This document shows positions 30,403-48,195 of a stretch of DNA of 50,828 bases, piece by piece; within the stretch, counting starts at the first letter, position 1; each line of letters starts with the position of its first letter. The translations under genes and the position numbers were made by a program. The notes under the pieces were generated by a model that searched no databases, had not been told where the DNA came from, and saw only the letters and a list, made by a program, of their open reading frames with translations. The stretch is from a phage, in sequence record PZ452605.1; one strand, 5' to 3'.

Positions 30403-30821
30403 TGGCTATAACTGATAAAGGAGATTATCTTGAGTTTTACGAAAGAGATCCAACCGACACGAGAAAGGAAGTTAATCACCAGATAGATAGCTTTCAGTGG
30501 TTGACTTATGCTCATCCTTATTTGCTAGCGTGGCATACGGTAAACGAGAATGAGAAGTCGAAAGTAACTGCGATGATTGATCAGCAGTCCGGCTTGGTTA
30601 AGGGGGTAAGCGATTTCATCATCCTGATTGGTTCAAACGGAAAATACCCCTTTGCAGCGATTGAGATCAAACGAGTGAATAAATCAGGCAAGGGGAAAGC
30701 ATCACCAGTCAGCGATGAACAAAAGGCTTTTTTGCGTCGCGTTCGCAGCTTAGGAGGATTCGCTGCGGTCGCCTACGGATTTAATCAGTTTAAGTTAGCT
30801 ATTGAATACATGCTTAAATAG
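30402..30821 (+). CDS. VRR-NUC domain nuclease
   Basis: 139 aa; GVSDFIIL ... AIEIKR PD-(D/E)XK-like core; ATG overlaps helicase stop. Confidence 0.55.
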   Translation: MAITDKGDYLEFYERDPTDTRKEVNHQIDSFQWLTYAHPYLLAWHTVNENEKSKVTAMIDQQSGLVKGVSDFIILIGSNGKYPFAAIEIKRVNKSGKGKASPVSDEQKAFLRRVRSLGGFAAVAYGFNQFKLAIEYMLK

Positions 30822-30837
30822 CACTTTTTGTTAAAAC
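30818..30837 (+). repeat. intergenic motif copy, co-directional
   Basis: exact ATAGCACTTTTTGTTAAAAC containing stop TAG of VRR-NUC gene. Confidence 0.65.
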
Positions 30838-31908: not shown

Positions 31909-31964
31909 GCCCGGCATTTTGTCGGGCATAATTATTTCATCGAAACGAACGTGAGGAAATGAAA

Positions 31965-32144
31965 ATGGTAGTATATAGCAAGAAAGCATTTGACAAGGCG
32001 CAACAAGCCGCACGCGAGGCGGTAAAAGGTGGAACGAAAAACAATATGCAGCTTGATTGGGGCGCTGCAATGATTCTACTTCGCGTTGCATATGGTCACT
32101 ACCCATTAGAATTTGCGGAGGCATATTATAAGCATGAAGGTTGA
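31965..32144 (+). CDS. hypothetical protein
   Basis: 59 aa from second ATG with GAGG RBS. Confidence 0.3.
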   Translation: MVVYSKKAFDKAQQAAREAVKGGTKNNMQLDWGAAMILLRVAYGHYPLEFAEAYYKHEG

Positions 32145-37965: not shown

Positions 37966-37985
37966 CTTTTAACAAAAAGTGCTAT
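37966..37985 (-). repeat. intergenic motif copy, co-directional (minus)
   Basis: ATAGCACTTTTTGTTAAAAG containing stop TAG of methylase gene. Confidence 0.65.
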
Positions 37986-38692
37986 TTTGAGTTTGACTCA
38001 AAGACGGCGCGAGCAAAGCCGCGCGGAGTGAGGGAGCGGATCATCTTTGTGCGTGATGACTTGCCACCAGTTTTGGCCCAGCCTGGATTATCTTTGTCGT
38101 TCTCTTTCGGCAGGATTAAAGCGCGTGGAGGAATAACAAAGCCGTTGCCAGTCCAGAGGCACGTTTTCTTAAAGTAGCGATCCCGCGCCGGAATAATATC
38201 AGGGAAGTCGGGATGTTTATCATCTTCCGGCAGATAGCCAGCGTAATCGCACGGATGGAACGTATAATCAGGCTTACGCCATAACGTTGACAACTTGCCA
38301 ACCGGATTTTCGATCATGTAAGGAACACCGAAATAATCAGCTATATCAGCAGCGATTCTGCAAGTGTCGGCGGCCTCATCCTGGAACAATGGATTCTCAA
38401 GTCGTTTTTTGGCCCAATGGCGAGATCCGCTATTTGCAAGGTCGGTGCATGGTGGGAAGGCCATAATAAAATCAGGATTGCCCCACTCATTATTGATTGC
38501 CTTAACATAAAAAGCATCATCAATCCAGACGTTAACGTATTCGATATTCTTATGCTGTATGCGCACTGACTGGTAATCACCGTGATCGCCGCCGTCAGCA
38601 TTAAAGCAAATGCACTTATAGCCATTATCAGCCCAATCTTTAACGGCTTTACCAGATCCATCAAATAGGGAGAATATTAAACCTTTATACAT
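37982..38692 (-). CDS. DNA cytosine-5 methyltransferase (short orphan Dcm type)
   Basis: motif I FSLFDGSG, motif IV PPCTD catalytic Pro-Cys, motif VI ENP; GAGG RBS. Confidence 0.7.
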   Translation of the reverse strand: MYKGLIFSLFDGSGKAVKDWADNGYKCICFNADGGDHGDYQSVRIQHKNIEYVNVWIDDAFYVKAINNEWGNPDFIMAFPPCTDLANSGSRHWAKKRLENPLFQDEAADTCRIAADIADYFGVPYMIENPVGKLSTLWRKPDYTFHPCDYAGYLPEDDKHPDFPDIIPARDRYFKKTCLWTGNGFVIPPRALILPKENDKDNPGWAKTGGKSSRTKMIRSLTPRGFARAVFESNSK

Positions 38693-38702
38693 CGTCATTA
38701 CC

Positions 38703-38927
38703 TCAAAACGGAAAACAGCGCGGACAACTAGGATCGAAATCGCATCCACAATCATTAACAATCATATTGGGATCTGCAAATATTGCGCTTGATTCAAGAT
38801 CCATATCCATATCACCTAAAGCCTCATCAAGAGTCTTAATTTTATATGCCACTTCAAGCGCCGCCTCTTTATTTAGTCCGGCATCTTCTGCCATTTGAAG
38901 GCGTTCAAAAAATCCGTCCTGACTCAT
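38703..38927 (-). CDS. hypothetical acidic protein with C-terminal Cys cluster
   Basis: 74 aa; CGCDFDPSCPRC at C-terminus. Confidence 0.4.
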   Translation of the reverse strand: MSQDGFFERLQMAEDAGLNKEAALEVAYKIKTLDEALGDMDMDLESSAIFADPNMIVNDCGCDFDPSCPRCFPF

Positions 38928-39040
38928 CGCATAACTCCCTTAATAACAGCCAAGATAATGGCCAGGCCAGCAGCAGTAACCAAAAATCCAACCGCGCCAA
39001 TAATCGAATAAAAAAATAAATCAATAGCTTTATCTATCAT
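38924..39040 (-). CDS. small hydrophobic membrane peptide
   Basis: 38 aa MIDKAIDLFFYSIIGAVGFLVTAAGLAIILAVIKGVMR; GAGGTG RBS; ATGA overlap with next gene; below ORF-track size cutoff. Confidence 0.3.
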   Translation of the reverse strand: MIDKAIDLFFYSIIGAVGFLVTAAGLAIILAVIKGVMR

Positions 39041-39082
39041 TTTCCACCTCATTTAAAAGGCGGCAAAACGCCGCCAGATTAA

Positions 39083-39310
39083 TTAAAGAGCGCGCCAACT
39101 TTGAATATAGAAAGCGTTTTCTTCCAGTAATTCTTTTACCTGATCTTTATTGTATTTGCGCACCTTACCGCCTGGATGGATACCAATAAGATAGCCGCCT
39201 TTGCCCTCTGTGATAGTGATTTGGCTAATTCCGCAGGACTTATCAAGTTTTACAGCCACGCGGTGATGAGCGTCAATAGTTGCCATAATGTTTAAAACTT
39301 TTGCTTTCAT
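39083..39310 (-). CDS. hypothetical protein
   Basis: 75-aa ORF. Confidence 0.4.
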   Translation of the reverse strand: MKAKVLNIMATIDAHHRVAVKLDKSCGISQITITEGKGGYLIGIHPGGKVRKYNKDQVKELLEENAFYIQSWRAL

Positions 39311-39466
39311 TTAAATATCCTCAATTGAAATATGAATGACGTGGCGCTCTTTTTCCGTCGCCGCCGTAATGGTCATTTGCAACCGCCACCATCCAAGCGT
39401 TTTTGAAAATAAATAGCCTCATTTCTTATTTTCAGCTTAAATTTATGGCCTGGAACACCAGCGCCA

Positions 39467-39748
39467 TTATGCGATCCCAGTTACGTTAAAACTTACAGCC
39501 TTTGTTGCGCTAAATACATAAGCATCAACAGCGCCGCAAAATACACGAATTTTACCCTGGCCGTACTGCGCATTCATATTTCGCCAAACCGTTCTATTAG
39601 AGCAGAATGCGCTACCAGTCTTAATAAGCATATCCATCTCTTTTCTTAGATCGCGATAGTCAAGCCAGAATCTAAAGGCGCGCTGTTTAATTCGCGCCGC
39701 CTTGATTTTTTCTCTTGCGCTATTGAAATCATTCTTTTCGTATGCCAT
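39467..39748 (-). CDS. hypothetical protein
   Basis: 93-aa basic ORF. Confidence 0.4.
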   Translation of the reverse strand: MAYEKNDFNSAREKIKAARIKQRAFRFWLDYRDLRKEMDMLIKTGSAFCSNRTVWRNMNAQYGQGKIRVFCGAVDAYVFSATKAVSFNVTGIA

Positions 39749-39945
39749 TAAATGATCTCCATGTATGTTTCAAAGCCATTTAACTTGAACAGGCCGTTTT
39801 CACATTTGCGCACGTTCCAAGTTAGCCCTGAGTGGTACGCCTCCATATCATCAAGGTCAATGGTGATTTCAGCACCTTTCTTAAACAAACCTTTTTCGTG
39901 AGACTTGTCGCGCTTAACAACTTTAACATCAACCTGATTTTCCAT
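39748..39945 (-). CDS. hypothetical protein
   Basis: 65-aa ORF; start follows motif-hairpin-leader element. Confidence 0.4.
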   Translation of the reverse strand: MENQVDVKVVKRDKSHEKGLFKKGAEITIDLDDMEAYHSGLTWNVRKCENGLFKLNGFETYMEII

Positions 39946-39999
39946 CTTTAAATCCTCGTTTGTTGTCGATGCGCTTACTATACCAATCAGCAGCGCATC

Positions 40000-40020
40000 G
40001 TTTTTAACAAAAAGTGCTAT
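40000..40020 (-). repeat. intergenic motif copy, co-directional (minus)
   Basis: ATAGCACTTTTTGTTAAAAAC right after stop TAA. Confidence 0.65.
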
Positions 40021-40281
40021 TTAGTTCAGAAATTCGATTTCACGCTCTCCAGTTAGCGGATCTACAAGCCAGAATCCGAGCGGTTCGTGAGCACCGCCAT
40101 AGAATCCAAGCGCCGCCAGATCTTCACCTTTAACGAATACCAGATTTCCGCTACGGCTTACGTGAGACACGTTAACGATAACCGGAAATGTGCGATCCTT
40201 AAATGCAGGCCGCAGGGCGTAACATCCGTTATTGAGCAAACGTGCTTTGCGCTTAACTGGAATAGGTGCATTAATTTTCAT
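40021..40281 (-). CDS. hypothetical protein
   Basis: 86 aa; AAGGAG RBS 8 nt upstream. Confidence 0.45.
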   Translation of the reverse strand: MKINAPIPVKRKARLLNNGCYALRPAFKDRTFPVIVNVSHVSRSGNLVFVKGEDLAALGFYGGAHEPLGFWLVDPLTGEREIEFLN

Positions 40282-40293
40282 GGTTATTACTCC

Positions 40294-40506
40294 TTATCGT
40301 AAAGATTTAAAGACGTATAGTTTATTGCGGTAACTATATATCCGCATTGTTATTTCTCGCAGTGCAATATATTCCTTCCTGTTTTCCGGCATACTGGCGA
40401 GCAATAACAGGCAGTATTTATAAGCGCGGTCAAGATTTCTTTCCGTGCCCCTGCAATATCCCTTGTTGCGCCTGGAGCGGCACAGCCATAACAATTTCTT
40501 GAACAT
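40294..40506 (-). CDS. hypothetical basic Cys/Arg-rich protein (uncertain)
   Basis: 70 aa from internal ATG coupled to upstream stop (TGAAATG); composition is unusual. Confidence 0.2.
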   Translation of the reverse strand: MFKKLLWLCRSRRNKGYCRGTERNLDRAYKYCLLLLASMPENRKEYIALREITMRIYSYRNKLYVFKSLR

Positions 40507-40507
40507 T

Positions 40508-40717
40508 TCAGATCCGCCCATACAGATCGCAAACTTCGTTGATAAAACAGCGTTGAGACTCTTTATCCTGCTTCTCAAACATCGCACGGCACTCATAGCG
40601 GTGATTATGCACGATGACAACAACCATATTTTCAGGCGCTGACGGGTGACGCGCGGAAGCGTCGCAGATTGAAACATCCATACCCATCTCATGTGCTTTC
40701 TTGATCACATCCAACAT
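40508..40717 (-). CDS. hypothetical protein
   Basis: 69 aa from ATG with GGAG RBS. Confidence 0.35.
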   Translation of the reverse strand: MLDVIKKAHEMGMDVSICDASARHPSAPENMVVVIVHNHRYECRAMFEKQDKESQRCFINEVCDLYGRI

Positions 40718-40971
40718 TTTTTCTTCTCCTGCAATAAGCAAACATCATTGATAAAATCAGTACGGCCCTTAATGTTGCTGATGTGGAACGTCTTTTCAGC
40801 GTACAGGCCATCACCTTCAATCACGATCATTACGCGAGTCGGTTTATTCACGGGCGCACGAGAAAAGGGTTGGCGCACCGGAAGAAATTTAGTAGCCACA
40901 TCCAGGTTAGCCCTGGCGGCCCTGCAAAACACCTCCGCCAGATCCAAATCATTTTCGGTAATCACCGCCAT
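40705..40971 (-). CDS. hypothetical protein
   Basis: 88-aa ORF. Confidence 0.4.
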   Translation of the reverse strand: MAVITENDLDLAEVFCRAARANLDVATKFLPVRQPFSRAPVNKPTRVMIVIEGDGLYAEKTFHISNIKGRTDFINDVCLLQEKKKCWM

Positions 40972-41243
40972 TACTTCTTGATCTCCTCACTGATAAATTT
41001 CAGCACCTGACGCAAGAAAACTTCGTTGTTGATAGTCGCTGGCAATTCTTCTTTCACTTCTTGCGGCAGATAGATATTGCCGTGCCAGGTCAAGCAATCG
41101 TAGTTAATACGATAAGAGCAAAGCCACTCGCAATCGTTATCTGCTTCCCATATGCAGAGTTGCAGAACATCGCCAAAATCTTCAACAGTCAGATCCAGAC
41201 CGTGACGCTTAGCGAAATTGAAAGTGGTTTTGCTGATGTTCAT
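40971..41243 (-). CDS. hypothetical acidic protein
   Basis: 90-aa ORF with GGAG RBS after motif-hairpin-leader. Confidence 0.4.
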   Translation of the reverse strand: MNISKTTFNFAKRHGLDLTVEDFGDVLQLCIWEADNDCEWLCSYRINYDCLTWHGNIYLPQEVKEELPATINNEVFLRQVLKFISEEIKK

Positions 41244-41302
41244 TTACTATCTCCTGAGCGGTTCGTTTCGATGGGATAACTATACCAGGTTATCCCGATC
41301 AG

Positions 41303-41322
41303 CTTTTAACAAAAAGTGCTAT
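41303..41322 (-). repeat. intergenic motif copy, co-directional (minus)
   Basis: ATAGCACTTTTTGTTAAAAG right after stop TAA. Confidence 0.65.
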
Positions 41323-41625
41323 TTATTGTTTTGCGTGGCGCTCAATGTAAGCGCGGATAGTTTCAGCGGTGTCTTTCGCAGATCCAAACGTGCCCTTTAC
41401 ATGGCGAGCGTCGCGGTAAGCCTGGAAGAATTTACGCGCGATATTTGCAAACATTGCACCAGTAACGCGAGCGTCGCCAAAATTTGTTTCAATGGCATTG
41501 CTGATGCCGTCCTGGAATTCATGCTCAGTCATGAACAGTTCAGCCATTTCTGCTGTTTCGAACAGGTCAGCCAGTGCTGCCATATTCTCGTGGTCTTTAG
41601 CGGTGAACAGGTTCATGTTAATCAT
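41323..41625 (-). CDS. hypothetical protein, first gene of early leftward cluster
   Basis: 100 aa from ATG with GAGGA RBS. Confidence 0.45.
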   Translation of the reverse strand: MINMNLFTAKDHENMAALADLFETAEMAELFMTEHEFQDGISNAIETNFGDARVTGAMFANIARKFFQAYRDARHVKGTFGSAKDTAETIRAYIERHAKQ

Positions 41626-41689
41626 TGTTTGGTCCTCATTAAGTGCGGTTCGTTTCGATGTGTGCAATGTACCCGATCAGGCGGCCTGA

Positions 41690-41709
41690 GTTTTAACAAA
41701 AAGTGCTAT
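41690..41709 (-). repeat. intergenic motif copy upstream of first early leftward gene
   Basis: exact 20-mer with no upstream gene; iterons lie just upstream on minus strand. Confidence 0.65.
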
Positions 41710-41740
41710 TTGACGGTTAGCACCAGGATTGCGATCTAAA

Positions 41741-41828
41741 TAATCAAAAGTAATCATTCGTAATCAAATCACGTCAAAATGATGATTGCCTTTGCAAATT
41801 TGATGAGAAAAGTAATCACGTTTAATCA
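41741..41828. repeat. five TAATCA iterons at 10-bp phasing
   Basis: TAATCA at 41741, 41751, 41761, 41813, 41823; in divergent early control region. Confidence 0.6.
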
Positions 41829-42264
41829 TTGGTTGCAGGGGAGATAGTGAAACCTTCCCCTCTTGCCTCACTTTTCCGCCCGGCTGTCAGTGGTTGTTGT
41901 CTTTTGTTCACCCCTGTTACCGATTTCAGGCGGCGTGTTTCCGCGCGGTTTTCCGGTGTAGCGAAAACGGAAAAAACAAAGAAAATCCTCTATAATACAT
42001 TGAAAATAAAGATTATTTATTTATATATATCTATAATGTTTTCTTTTTGTTCTCACTGTTACAGTGCTTTTTGTTGGTTATGGTGTGGTTGTGTGTGGGT
42101 ATATATGGATAGTTGCGCGCGCGGCGGATTGCATATGTATATATACTTTTTCCGGCGGATTGCGTTAACAGCGTGAACAGAAAAATAACAGCCGCGAAAT
42201 CAATAACTTGCGCATGATTTTGTAGTTTTTCGATATTGGTAACGTTTTGAATACAACAAAAACA

Positions 42265-42292
42265 TTGACACGCACCAAATAGCTTTTATAAT
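42265..42292 (+). promoter_or_regulatory. consensus sigma70 promoter (TTGACA-16-TATAAT)
   Basis: perfect -35 and -10 hexamers with 16-nt spacer, 30 nt upstream of ATG 42324. Confidence 0.65.
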
Positions 42293-42788: not shown

Positions 42789-43057
42789 AAAAGGCATTAA
42801 TCAGCGTTTTGGCGGCAATGGCATTCCTGACCGGATGCAAAGAAGATGGCGCGCATGTTGGCAATGTGCAGATGGCTAACCCTGGCGATGACTACAGCGT
42901 AAGGGAGCTATTCACCGCTGACGGTTGCACAGTTTACCGATTCTATGACGATCGCACTGTTTACTTCACCAACTGCAAGGGAACGACTAGCTGGGAAGTG
43001 TCGAAAAGCAATGGCAAAGGCACGAAGACAGAACATATGACCGTCGAAACAAAATAG
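42785..43057 (+). CDS. small lipoprotein (second)
   Basis: 90 aa; signal peptide with lipobox LTGC; two further Cys in mature part. Confidence 0.55.
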   Translation: MKKALISVLAAMAFLTGCKEDGAHVGNVQMANPGDDYSVRELFTADGCTVYRFYDDRTVYFTNCKGTTSWEVSKSNGKGTKTEHMTVETK

Positions 43058-43073
43058 CACTTTTTGTTAAAAC
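43054..43073 (+). repeat. intergenic motif copy, co-directional
   Basis: exact 20-mer containing stop TAG of lipoprotein gene; precedes candidate structured RNA. Confidence 0.65.
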
Positions 43074-47885: not shown

Positions 47886-48176
47886 ATGGCAAACAAAACT
47901 TACCGCAAACTACTGGTTAACGCTTTTGAAAACATCGCGCAGTGTAACAAGTGGAACGACTCTAAACACTCGCCAGTCACAATGAAGCGCGCCGGATTCA
48001 AAAATGCTCGTTCATGGGCGCGAGCTTTCGCATCTTGCTATATGCCTGATGGCGGATTAGGAGCGATGAACGATTTTTTAATCAACATGATAGAGGAGGC
48101 TGCGCGAGAGGATCGACCGCTGACACAGCGAGATTTTGACGACTTCGCGCGCGATGAGCTTTACTATCTGAGCTAA
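47886..48176 (+). CDS. hypothetical protein
   Basis: 96-aa ORF. Confidence 0.4.
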   Translation: MANKTYRKLLVNAFENIAQCNKWNDSKHSPVTMKRAGFKNARSWARAFASCYMPDGGLGAMNDFLINMIEEAAREDRPLTQRDFDDFARDELYYLS

Positions 48177-48195
48177 TAGCACTTTTTGTTAAAAC
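48176..48195 (+). repeat. intergenic motif copy, co-directional
   Basis: exact 20-mer after stop TAA; followed by hairpin AAGGGCA...TGCCCTT. Confidence 0.65.

What the first reader, a model, noticed from the sequence alone, without database searches (positions are those of the whole stretch)
38703..41625. Leftward early island of about twelve small ORFs with no recognisable function
Every gene from 41625 down to 38703 is 38-100 aa, most preceded by the motif-hairpin-leader cassette, and none shows a motif I recognise. The island includes a Cys-cluster protein (38703-38927) and a 38-aa membrane peptide (38924-39040). Such cassette-driven early islands are where host-takeover and anti-defence genes concentrate.
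Basis: inference. Interest (0 to 1): 0.5.

Follow-up and report, generated by a model that had tools for sequence, protein, structure and literature searches.

The report
Swappable early-gene island of a T1-like phage
This is the variable accessory-gene stretch of an ordinary T1-like coliphage: twelve real small genes in three promoter-driven modules that relatives gain and lose at repeated promoter cassettes. One gene belongs to a family known to set off a bacterial immune sensor; the function of the others is unknown.

Summary
The window is a complete Warwickvirus (Drexlerviridae, T1-like) genome, 96-97% identical to SLUR29, tunus, Bas04 and SECphi27.

The island is real. It holds 12 minus-strand ORFs of 33-100 aa, most with Shine-Dalgarno sites and most with codon-position evidence of purifying selection.

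- Only 3 of the 12 ORFs (O1, O2, O7) follow the motif-hairpin-leader cassette. The rest are packed into three operons.
- One ORF is recognisable. O7 (39748-39945) matches Pfam PF25180 "antiviral trigger protein Gp54". It is 100% identical to SECphi27 Gp19, which was published as not activating CapRelSJ46.

The other ORFs have no functional match. O2 is spread across unrelated phage families and gives a confident alpha/beta model with only weak fold matches. O10, O12 (four invariant Cys, charge -11.5) and the methyltransferase are backbone genes found across the family. O1, O3, O5 and O8 are narrow accessory genes.

The cassette is a sigma-70 promoter. Published Bas11 escape mutations appear to fall in its -10 hexamer and its 21-nt motif.

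Whole modules are exchanged at the cassettes, as with the PeSL cassettes of T4-type phages, and the leader ATCGAAACGA is shared with phage Phi1.

Early timing and an anti-defence role remain inferences. Verdict: an ordinary accessory region, with a modestly new PeSL-like mechanism in T1-like phages.

The parts
41626..41711 (-). Promoter cassette P1. It comprises the 21-nt motif (41691-41711), a 19-nt spacer without a hairpin, the -10 hexamer TACATT (41666-41671), the leader ATCGAAACGAACCGC and the Shine-Dalgarno site of O1.
   Evidence: (z +0.6, no hairpin).
41323..41625 (-). O1, 100 aa, with an acidic N-terminal half and a basic C-terminal half. It is a sporadic mobile module.
   Evidence: PHROG 12926, function unknown. 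Found in only 28 phage records: SLUR29, tunus and Rogue1-like phages. Only 2 strong clusters among 1.84 billion representatives. Absent from SECphi27, Bas04, tonn, mar001J1 and EcoS-95.
41244..41324 (-). Promoter cassette P2. It comprises the motif (41304-41324), a hairpin (about 41269-41301) with the -10 in its loop and 3' arm, the extended -10 TGG-TATAGT (hexamer 41279-41284) and the leader ATCGAAACGAACCGC.
   Evidence: (-13.7 kcal/mol, z -2.8).
40971..41243 (-). O2, 90 aa and acidic. A widely transferred small protein with an alpha-beta4-alpha-alpha fold.
40705..40971 (-). O3, 88 aa. An ORFan restricted to the genus. Its start overlaps the O2 stop (TAATG).
   Evidence: No Pfam, PHROG or PDB hit. 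65 records, all Escherichia or Shigella phages at 88% identity or more. Weak codon-position bias.
40508..40717 (-). O4, 69 aa with 4 Cys.
   Evidence: Third-position bias 2/3/11. The cluster has 65 members, all named hypothetical. The overlapping 132-aa frame is not coding.
40294..40506 (-). O5, 70 aa and very basic (pI 10.3, charge +12.5). It is often left unannotated in relatives.
   Evidence: 13 synonymous against 7 nonsynonymous changes, codon positions 4/3/14. 58 records, closely related Escherichia and Shigella phages at 94% identity or more; several show no annotated feature. Physical properties.
40021..40281 (-). O6, 86 aa. Last gene of the P2 operon. Its stop codon lies inside the P3 motif.
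   Evidence: PHROG 9595, E 5.7e-13. 183 records of T1-like phages, including T1 itself.
39946..40022 (-). Promoter cassette P3. It comprises the motif (40002-40022), a hairpin (about 39967-40000), the extended -10 TGG-TATAGT (hexamer 39977-39982) and the leader. This is the site where relatives carry extra two-gene modules.
   Evidence: (-17 kcal/mol, z -4.4).
39748..39945 (-). O7, 65 aa, a member of the Gp54 family. It is identical to SECphi27 Gp19.
   Evidence: Pfam PF25180, E 1.7e-38, 130.7 bits against a cutoff of 27. PDB 9axb/9erv Gp54, E 4.4e-17. 100% identical to the SECphi27 gene. 14 synonymous against 2 nonsynonymous changes.
39467..39748 (-). O8, 93 aa and basic. A variable gene, absent from tunus, tonn, EC125 and aalborv.
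   Evidence: No family or PDB hit.
39432..39467 (-). An 11-codon remnant (MALVFQAINLS) of a 70-aa gene (bas04_0054). The gene is present in most relatives and is deleted here and in SECphi27.
39321..39422 (-). O9, a 33-aa microprotein.
   Evidence: PHROG 32259, E 1.2e-19. 15 synonymous against 2 nonsynonymous changes.
39083..39310 (-). O10, 75 aa. A backbone gene found across the family.
   Evidence: PHROG 4344. 685 phage records, including Klebsiella T1-like phages and T1.
39059..39075 (-). Terminator-like hairpin GGCGGCGTTTTGCCGCC followed by TTTTAAAT, between O10 and O11.
   Evidence: Consensus match only.
38924..39040 (-). O11, a 38-aa peptide with a single transmembrane helix. Its stop overlaps the O12 start (ATGA).
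   Evidence: 9 synonymous against 7 nonsynonymous changes, and one homologue carries a stop. No family hit.
38703..38927 (-). O12, 74 aa and very acidic (pI 4.1, charge -11.5). It ends in CxCx5CxxCFPF. It is conserved directly upstream of the methyltransferase gene in all T1-like contigs and loci examined.
   Evidence: searches (C60, C62, C68, C71 invariant; synteny in T1-like contigs, including ones matching a Klebsiella phage protein), 78, and 82 (AF2 pLDDT 67, too poor for a fold search).
37982..38692 (-). Dcm-like DNA methyltransferase, 236 aa. It is the downstream neighbour and a conserved anchor of the island.
   Evidence: PHROG 757, E 7.5e-85. No Pfam hit at E 0.01 or below. Annotated as a methyltransferase in relatives.

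Best explanation
The island is the promoter-proximal accessory region of the leftward transcription unit of a T1-like (Warwickvirus) phage.

How it is expressed:
- Three tandem sigma-70 promoter cassettes (P1, P2, P3) are read by host RNA polymerase without any phage factor.
- Each cassette consists of a 21-nt upstream motif, a spacer that usually forms a stem-loop, a -10 hexamer that is extended in P2 and P3, and a conserved leader beginning ATCGA.
- The cassettes drive three groups of tightly packed, partly translationally coupled small genes: O1; O2-O6; and O7-O10.
- Transcription then passes a weak terminator into O11-O12 and the methyltransferase.

How it changes:
- Because the cassettes are repeated, recombination between them inserts, deletes or swaps whole 'ORF plus cassette' modules. 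This is the mechanism described for PeSL cassettes in T4-type phages.

What the products probably do:
- They are small proteins without recognisable catalytic domains. They most likely act by binding host or competitor proteins early in infection.
- The variable ones (O1-O9) are dispensable accessory genes of the kind that interact with host immunity.
- O10, O12 and the methyltransferase are conserved backbone.

Shown here or in print: the gene calls, the mosaic content, the cassette-bounded junctions, promoter activity of the homologous Bas11 cassette, and Gp54-family membership of O7.

Inferred: early timing, protein-binding roles, and any anti-defence function.
For: Identity of the phage:
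- Warwickvirus, 96-97% identical to SLUR29, tunus, Bas04 and SECphi27.

Coding evidence:
- Codon-position bias and ribosome-binding sites.

The cassette is a promoter:
- Eighteen motif copies against 0 expected, all oriented with the flanking genes.
- A -10 hexamer lies 18-19 nt after the motif, preceded by TGn in P2-P4.
- In Bas11 the same cassette precedes gene 54.
- The published escape mutations are named '-37mut' and '-71mut'. Both lower Gp54-FLAG expression from the native promoter on pBR322 (PMC11578894).
- Counted from the ATG, -37 falls on A2 of the -10 hexamer and -71 falls inside the 21-nt motif.

Modular exchange:
- The O1 module is absent from six of the eight closest relatives compared (all but SLUR29 and tunus). 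Its junction lies exactly in the shared 15-nt leader.
- Two alternative two-gene modules are inserted at P3 in other relatives, each flanked by duplicated cassettes.

Interaction with immunity:
- O7 is a Gp54-family member.
- Gp54 of Bas11 binds and activates CapRelSJ46, and is non-essential.

Horizontal spread:
- O2 occurs in 431 records across unrelated phage families.
- In Phi1 it sits in a run of small ORFs separated by promoter-like intergenic spacers, and it shares the leader ATCGAAACGA.
Against: - No ORF matches a known anti-defence, toxin or host-takeover protein. Pfam, PHROGs, NCBIfam and PADLOC gave nothing functional, and only O7 has a PDB sequence match. No anti-defence HMM library was available.
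- The exact O7 allele (SECphi27 Gp19) does not activate CapRelSJ46.
- Early timing is untested.
- Spacing from TTAAAA to the -10 is 18-19 nt, which is suboptimal. The motif may therefore act as something other than a plain -35.
- Not all indels are cassette-bounded. The O8 and Xa indels, and the O3-O5 loss in aalborv, are not.
- O10 and O12 are conserved like core genes.
- The numbering convention of the Bas11 mutations is assumed.
Confidence: 0.75

Rival explanations
1. Specifically an anti-defence island. One or more of O1-O9 inhibits a host immune system, for example restriction-modification, and this is the island's main role.
For: - The region is variable, dispensable, promoter-proximal and made of small genes. 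It fits the 'accessory region' concept.
- Zhang et al. suggest that Gp54 may inhibit another defence system.
- Warwickvirus Bas04 and Bas05 are unusually resistant to restriction, with no known cause.
Against: - There is no homology to any known anti-defence protein.
- The fold matches are weak and Foldseek finds nothing.
- The BASEL authors found no genomic feature that correlates with restriction resistance.
- No experiment bears on these ORFs.
Confidence: 0.35
2. Mainly phage-internal regulators or replication helpers. Under this reading the small proteins tune the phage's own transcription, replication or DNA methylation rather than targeting the host.
For: - O10, O12 and the methyltransferase are syntenic across Drexlerviridae.
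- The same transcription unit continues into a DUF3987 helicase gene.
- O12 is placed as if translationally coupled. Its start overlaps the O11 stop, and it ends 10 nt before the methyltransferase start.
Against: - O1-O9 vary between near-identical phages and can be lost (Bas11 deletions). This is not expected of essential regulators.
- No DNA-binding domain was detected.
Confidence: 0.3
3. Many of the ORFs are annotation noise: non-coding spacer between promoters that happens to be open.
For: - The ORFs are very short. O5 is unannotated in several RefSeq records.
- O3, O8 and O11 show only weak codon-position bias, and one O11 homologue carries a stop.
- Annotators disagree on the region. Bas04 calls a 423-nt ORF across O4 and O5.
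Against: - Third-position bias is strong for O2, O4, O5, O7, O9, O10 and O12.
- The competing 132-aa frame shows the opposite pattern, 2 synonymous against 12 nonsynonymous changes.
- Ten ORFs have Shine-Dalgarno sites.
- Stops and starts overlap tightly.
- PHROG families exist for 8 of the 12 ORFs.
Confidence: 0.07

Closest known systems
PeSL (promoter-early stem-loop) mobile regulatory cassettes of T4-type phages RB49 and phi1 (Arbiol, Comeau & Krisch 2010, PMC2839356; Comeau et al. 2014, PMC4122927)
   Same: - The layout is the same: stop codon of the upstream gene, AT-rich stretch, sigma-70-like promoter, and a stem-loop usually between -35 and -10 or over the -10.
- The cassettes are repeated many times in front of small ORFans.
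- Differences between close relatives are bounded by cassettes.
- The mobile unit is one ORF plus one cassette.
- Even the leader ATCGAAACGA after the -10 is shared with Phi1.
- An O2 homologue (Phi1 ORF194) lies in such a region.
   Different: - The host phage is a 50-kb T1-like siphovirus, which those two papers do not mention.
- The upstream element is a fixed 21-nt motif ending in TTAAAA, with 18-19 nt spacing. RB49 and phi1 have TTGACA-N17.
- The copies are spread over the whole genome, including structural regions.
- Circular recombination intermediates were not tested.
Gp54 of phage Bas11, trigger of the CapRelSJ46 toxin-antitoxin defence (Zhang et al. 2024, PMC11578894; PDB 9axb, 9erv; Pfam PF25180)
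   Same: - O7 aligns end to end with Gp54, with slightly more than half of the residues identical in the printed alignment.
- It has the same genomic position behind the same cassette.
- It is small, and the family is non-essential.
   Different: - O7 is identical to SECphi27 Gp19, which did not activate CapRelSJ46.
- It has V7 and A25, where Bas11 needs A7 and I25.
- The family's function for the phage itself is unknown.
Phage accessory regions as defined by Silas et al. (bioRxiv 10.1101/2023.04.06.535777; PMC12373910)
   Same: It is a hotspot of variable, small, non-essential genes between conserved flanks in closely related enterobacteriophages.
   Different: No known counter-defence gene is present to mark it. 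I found no mention of T1-like phages in the main text of the preprint with a term search. The PMC12373910 version was not read.

Membership tests
Pfam PF25180 (phage antiviral trigger protein Gp54), for O7 | Full-length match to the family HMM above the gathering score | tested here: met
   130.7 bits against a cutoff of 27, E 1.7e-38, residues 1-65 of 65.
Pfam PF25180 (phage antiviral trigger protein Gp54), for O7 | Sequence homology to the solved Gp54 of Bas11 | tested here: met
   PDB 9axb/9erv, E 4.4e-17, aligned over residues 1-65.
Pfam PF25180 (phage antiviral trigger protein Gp54), for O7 | Activates CapRelSJ46 (the property that gives the family its name) | not testable with these tools
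   The identical protein, SECphi27 Gp19, was published as not toxic when co-produced with CapRelSJ46. O7 has V7 and A25 instead of the required A7 and I25. O7 is therefore a member by sequence and, on published data, probably not a trigger of this sensor.
PeSL-type mobile promoter cassettes | Sigma-70-like promoter directly after the upstream stop codon, with an AT-rich upstream element | tested here: met
   The stop codons of O1 and O6 lie in the motif. A -10 hexamer follows 18-19 nt after the motif, with TGn in P2-P4. Bas11 promoter mutations lower expression.
PeSL-type mobile promoter cassettes | Stem-loop within or overlapping the promoter | tested here: met
   12 of 14 cassettes tested fold with z of -2 or below, although their stem sequences differ. 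In the island this holds for 2 of 3; P1 has no stem-loop.
PeSL-type mobile promoter cassettes | Indels between close relatives are bounded by the cassettes | tested here: met
   This holds for the O1 module and for the two alternative modules at P3. It does not hold for the O8 and Xa indels.
PeSL-type mobile promoter cassettes | Excised mini-circles detectable during infection | not testable with these tools
   Needs inverse PCR on infected cells.
Anti-defence accessory region | Variable gene content between conserved flanks in near-identical phages | tested here: met
   At least seven different arrangements among 13 loci.
Anti-defence accessory region | Contains at least one gene with known or demonstrable counter-defence activity | tested here: inconclusive
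   No hit in Pfam, PHROGs, NCBIfam, PADLOC or PDB apart from Gp54. No anti-defence profile library was available.
RWD / UBC-like alpha+beta sandwich, for O2 | Significant structural match to the fold | tested here: inconclusive
Acidic DNA-mimic anti-restriction proteins (Ocr/ArdA-like), considered for O12 | Strongly acidic surface arranged like DNA | tested here: inconclusive
   Net charge -11.5 over 74 aa. The AF2 model is too poor to judge, pLDDT 67 and pTM 0.35. There is no sequence match. O12 is also present in phage groups that are restriction-sensitive overall.

The most novel reading that the evidence does not exclude
The T1-like cassettes may be true relatives of the RB49/phi1 PeSLs. 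They share the -10-to-leader sequence ATCGAAACGA..CACTT..GGAG..CAAACAATG.

Together they would form a common exchange currency that moves early accessory genes, such as the O2 family, between unrelated coliphage families.

Within this island, at least one product would be a new inhibitor or modulator of host immunity. Candidates are O2, O5, O7 and the acidic four-Cys protein O12 that travels with the methyltransferase. This could account for the unexplained restriction resistance of some Warwickvirus phages.
Probability: 0.2. Interest if true: 0.6.

Novelty: new member of a known kind. Interest (0 to 1): 0.35.

Why it matters
The genes are already deposited as 'hypothetical' in well over a hundred phage genomes, so the island itself is not a discovery. 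The value of the analysis is practical:

- It gives a cleaned gene map. O4 and O5 are real, and the 132-aa call across them is not. O5 and O9 are real but easily missed.
- It separates backbone genes (O10, O12, the methyltransferase) from truly variable modules (O1-O9).
- It ties the repeated motif to published promoter mutations.
- It shows that T1-like phages swap early genes at promoter cassettes, as T4-type phages do.

This tells experimenters which modules to delete or swap when looking for the factors behind differences in defence sensitivity among closely related BASEL and SECphi27-type phages. It also marks natural cut points for engineering.

Tried and rejected
Searches and models that gave nothing useful:
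- Pfam, NCBIfam and PADLOC scans of all ORFs gave nothing except O7. The weak XdhC_C and ComA hits for O4 are far below cutoff.
- PDB sequence searches of O1, O3, O4, O5, O6, O8 and O10, and profile searches for O2 and O12, gave no credible match.
- Cluster names for exact sequences were all 'hypothetical'.
- The exhaustive HMMER search for O1 found only two close clusters plus two weak, probably spurious hits.
- The O10 homologue search returned 5 near-identical proteins, too few for a useful alignment.
- The AF2 model of O12 had low confidence, so no fold search was run on it.
- O2 fold searches gave no significant match with Foldseek against PDB. BFVD returned only uncharacterised phage proteins, apparently its own family. 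AFDB50 was not available.
- Rfam found nothing, at gathering scores for the whole window or at E of 1 or below for the island.
- Literature searches for the motif sequence, for T1-like promoter cassettes and for a T1-like infection transcriptome found nothing relevant.

Readings considered and rejected:
- TTGTTA as the -35 hexamer. Its spacing to the -10 would be 22 nt.
- The hairpin as a sense-strand intrinsic terminator. No U-tract follows it.
- An antisense-terminator reading of the hairpin plus TTTTAAC. This was considered but not pursued, because there are only four T.
- Names such as 'thiol:disulfide interchange protein' for O2 and 'TamB' for O11 in some records. They have no support.

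Full report
**What the window is.** The 50.8-kb window is a complete genome of a T1-like siphovirus (Drexlerviridae, Tempevirinae, Warwickvirus). The 4.3 kb around the finding is 96-97% identical to phages SLUR29, tunus, FritzSarasin (Bas04), tonnikala and SECphi27 (taxonomy). The finding lies at the start of a leftward block (about 35-41.7 kb). This block continues into a Dcm-like methyltransferase (PHROG 757) and a DUF3987 helicase. It is separated by a roughly 580-bp intergenic region from a rightward block of small genes.

**Check of the observation: the ORFs.** Twelve minus-strand ORFs fill 41625-38703. I call them O1 to O12, and their coordinates are in the parts list.
- Ten have a clear Shine-Dalgarno sequence. 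Several are joined by overlapping stop and start codons: TAATG for O2/O3 and O7/O8, and ATGA for O11/O12.
- I compared the window with 12 related loci and counted unique codon changes:

| ORF | Synonymous | Nonsynonymous |
|---|---|---|
| O2 | 19 | 10 |
| O4 | 9 | 5 |
| O5 | 13 | 7 |
| O7 | 14 | 2 |
| O9 | 15 | 2 |
| O10 | 13 | 5 |
| O12 | 32 | 25 |

- In all of these, most substitutions fall at third codon positions. O3, O8 and O11 show weaker bias. O1 and O6 could not be assessed: O1 had no variant homologue, and all O6 homologues carry in-frame length differences.
- The N-terminal extension of the alternative 132-aa ORF (40294-40692, annotated in Bas04 as a 423-nt gene) has 2 synonymous and 12 nonsynonymous changes. 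These concentrate at its second codon position, which is the third position of O4. O4 and O5 are therefore the real genes.
- The 38-aa peptide is a single hydrophobic helix, and O12 carries four Cys.

**Check of the observation: the cassette.** The motif AAATAGCACTTTTTGTTAAAA occurs 18 times in the window against none expected. Only three copies lie in the island, upstream of O1, O2 and O7. 'Most preceded by the cassette' is therefore an overstatement. Hairpins are significant for the O2 and O7 copies (z -2.8 and -4.4) and absent from the O1 copy.

**What the ORFs are.** O7 matches Pfam PF25180, 'phage antiviral trigger protein Gp54', over its full length (E 1.7e-38). It also matches the solved Gp54 of phage Bas11 (PDB 9axb, E 4.4e-17).

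According to Zhang et al. 2024 (PMC11578894):
- Gp54 of Bas11 is a six-stranded beta-barrel. It binds and activates the CapRelSJ46 toxin-antitoxin defence protein.
- It is not toxic alone and is not essential.
- Its function for the phage itself is unknown.

O7 is 100% identical to the SECphi27 homologue Gp19. That paper reports that Gp19 does not activate CapRelSJ46. O7 has V7 and A25 where Bas11 needs A7 and I25.

All other ORFs hit only PHROG families of unknown function, or nothing. None hits PADLOC, NCBIfam or PDB sequences. Database names are uniformly 'hypothetical'.

**Distribution separates the island into layers.**

| ORF | Phage records | Where found |
|---|---|---|
| O10 | 685 | T1-like phages of Klebsiella, Escherichia and other enterobacteria, including T1 |
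| O2 | 431 | T1-like phages, Krischvirus (Phi1/RB49-type T-even), rV5-like and Justusliebigvirus myoviruses, Klebsiella, Vibrio and jumbo phages |
| O7 | 215 | Escherichia, Shigella, Salmonella and Citrobacter phages of about 50 kb (T1-like), including TLS |
| O6 | 183 | T1-like phages, including T1 |
| O8 | 80 | Warwickvirus and related T1-like phages |
| O3 | 65 | Close relatives only (88% identity or more) |
| O5 | 58 | Close relatives only (94% identity or more) |
| O1 | 28 | Two Warwickvirus species plus Rogue1-like phages |

- O12 is 69-99% identical in contigs of about 50 kb. In the three T1-like contigs examined, and in Bas11, it lies directly upstream of the 234-236-aa methyltransferase gene.
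- O1 has only two close clusters among 1.84 billion representative proteins.
- O12 is very acidic (charge -11.5). C60, C62, C68, C71 and the C-terminal CFPF are invariant. Its model was too poor to use (pLDDT 67).

**The cassette is a promoter.**
- After the motif come 18-19 nt and then a -10 hexamer: TACATT, TATAGT, TATAGT and CATAAT for P1-P4. P2-P4 carry TGn just upstream, which makes an extended -10.
- About six bases further on, the conserved leader ATCGAAACGAACCGC (or a variant) begins. This is where a transcript would be expected to start. The Shine-Dalgarno site follows.
- In Bas11 the same cassette sits directly in front of gene 54.
- Zhang et al. isolated two escape phages with mutations 'immediately upstream' of gene 54. 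These lowered Gp54-FLAG expression from the native promoter on a plasmid. Their plasmid table names them -37mut and -71mut.
- Counted from the ATG, -37 is the A at position 2 of the hexamer TATCAT. -71 lies inside the 21-nt motif, about 45 nt upstream of the presumed start.
- This numbering convention is my assumption. If it is right, both the -10 and the conserved motif are needed for expression with host RNA polymerase alone. That fits early expression.
- No infection time course for a T1-like phage was found, so 'early' remains an inference.

**Modules are exchanged at the cassettes.** A gene-content map of 13 loci reads as follows for the window:

[P1] O1 [P2] O2-O6 [P3] O7 O8 (remnant) O9 O10 O11 O12 methyltransferase [P4]

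- SECphi27, Bas04, tonn, mar001J1, EC125, EcoS-95 and B1.2 lack the O1 module.
- Bas04 and SECphi27 carry an extra two-gene module at P3. EcoS-95, B1.2 and aalborv carry a different two-gene module at the same place. Each is flanked by a duplicated cassette.
- Phages without O1 have the P1-type spacer joined to the O2-type ribosome-binding site exactly within the shared 15-nt leader. The inserted unit is therefore 'ribosome-binding site, O1, motif, hairpin and -10, leader', which is one ORF plus one cassette.
- Other differences are not cassette-bounded. These are the presence or absence of O8, the loss of O3-O5 in aalborv, and a deletion of about 150 bp. That deletion, shared with SECphi27, reduces a 70-aa gene to an 11-codon remnant in the window.
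- More distant relatives (Bas11 and a T1-like contig carrying a protein named for a Klebsiella phage) retain only the skeleton [P] O2 ... [P] ... O10 O12 methyltransferase.

**Comparison with what is known.** The architecture and behaviour match the PeSL cassettes described for the T4-type phages RB49 and phi1. Those have the stop codon of the upstream gene in an AT-rich stretch, a sigma-70 promoter, and a stem-loop most often between -35 and -10. They lie in front of ORFans in hyperplastic regions and mediate indels.
- The O2 homologue of Phi1 (ORF194) lies in a run of small hypothetical ORFs separated by promoter-like intergenic spacers of this type.
- Phi1 intergenic sequences read TTGACA-N17-CATAAT-acaccc-ATCGAAACGAGATACCACTTAGGAGAATCAAACAATG. 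This shares the leader, and in the O1 cassette also CACTTA and CAAACAATG, with the window.
- Whether this reflects common descent or convergence on a good early leader is open.
- The two PeSL papers do not mention T1-like phages. The cassette itself is present in more than 700 records of T1-like phages, including T1 and Klebsiella phages.

**Verdict.** The interpretation as a variable, promoter-driven block of accessory genes is supported. The anti-defence or host-takeover role is a reasonable expectation without direct evidence. It applies at most to O1-O9, since O10 and O12 are backbone.

The most useful lead for function is circumstantial. Bas04 and Bas05, of the same genus, are unusually resistant to restriction for unknown reasons. 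Gp54-family proteins physically meet a host immune sensor. I rate the finding as an ordinary accessory region (interest 0.35) with a modestly new point: PeSL-like modular shuffling, with a shared leader, in T1-like phages.

Noticed in passing
window, 18 sites (for example 30816-30836 +, 37967-37987 -, 43052-43072 +, 48174-48194 +): The 21-nt motif and its promoter cassette are spread over the whole genome on both strands, always pointing with the downstream genes. 12 of the 14 copies tested carry a stable stem-loop whose sequence differs from copy to copy. The cassette is found in more than 700 records of T1-like phages, including T1 and Klebsiella phages.
   Followed up: partly
L015 (phage Phi1) 647-2450, compared with window 41626-41672, 41244-41285 and 31920-31965: The PeSL cassettes of the T4-type phage Phi1 share the post -10 leader ATCGAAACGA with the T1-like cassettes, and in part CACTT..GGAG..CAAACAATG as well. 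Phi1 ORF194, an O2 homologue, lies among them. This points to cross-family exchange or to convergence.
   Followed up: partly
window 41712-42290: A roughly 580-bp divergent intergenic region. It contains AT-rich palindromes (42017-42036), two copies of CGGCGGATTGC 31 nt apart (42122-42132 and 42153-42163), and a perfect TTGACA-16-TATAAT promoter at 42265-42292 (+) for the rightward genes. It may be a regulatory region or an origin.
   Followed up: no
window 40294-40692 (-): The 132-aa ORF annotated in Bas04 (bas04_0060, 423 nt) is an over-extension. Its first 62 codons evolve as the third-position frame of O4. Conversely, O5 is unannotated in SECphi27, tunus, tonijn, mar001J1 and others, although it is under purifying selection.
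   Followed up: yes
window 37982-38692 (-): The Dcm-like methyltransferase is only 236 aa and gives no Pfam hit at E 0.01 or below, although PHROG 757 matches at E 7.5e-85. By eye it has FxGxG-, PPC- and ENP-like motifs. It is always preceded by the acidic four-Cys protein O12.
   Followed up: no
window 39432-39476 (-): The window and SECphi27 share a deletion of about 150 bp in a 70-aa gene (bas04_0054) that most relatives keep. It leaves an 11-codon ORF.
   Followed up: yes
hits H71, H72, H113, H115 and others: About 20 records labelled 'Campylobacter phage' (A14b, A16a, A113 and so on, host C. jejuni) are close relatives of these E. coli T1-like phages: 86% nucleotide identity over part of the island and 96-97% identity for the O2 protein. 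The host labels look doubtful.
   Followed up: no
relatives' annotations of O2 and O11: Some records name O2 'putative thiol:disulfide interchange protein'. RefSeq names the SECphi27 homologue of the 38-aa peptide 'translocation/assembly module TamB'. Neither name is supported by any search here.
   Followed up: yes
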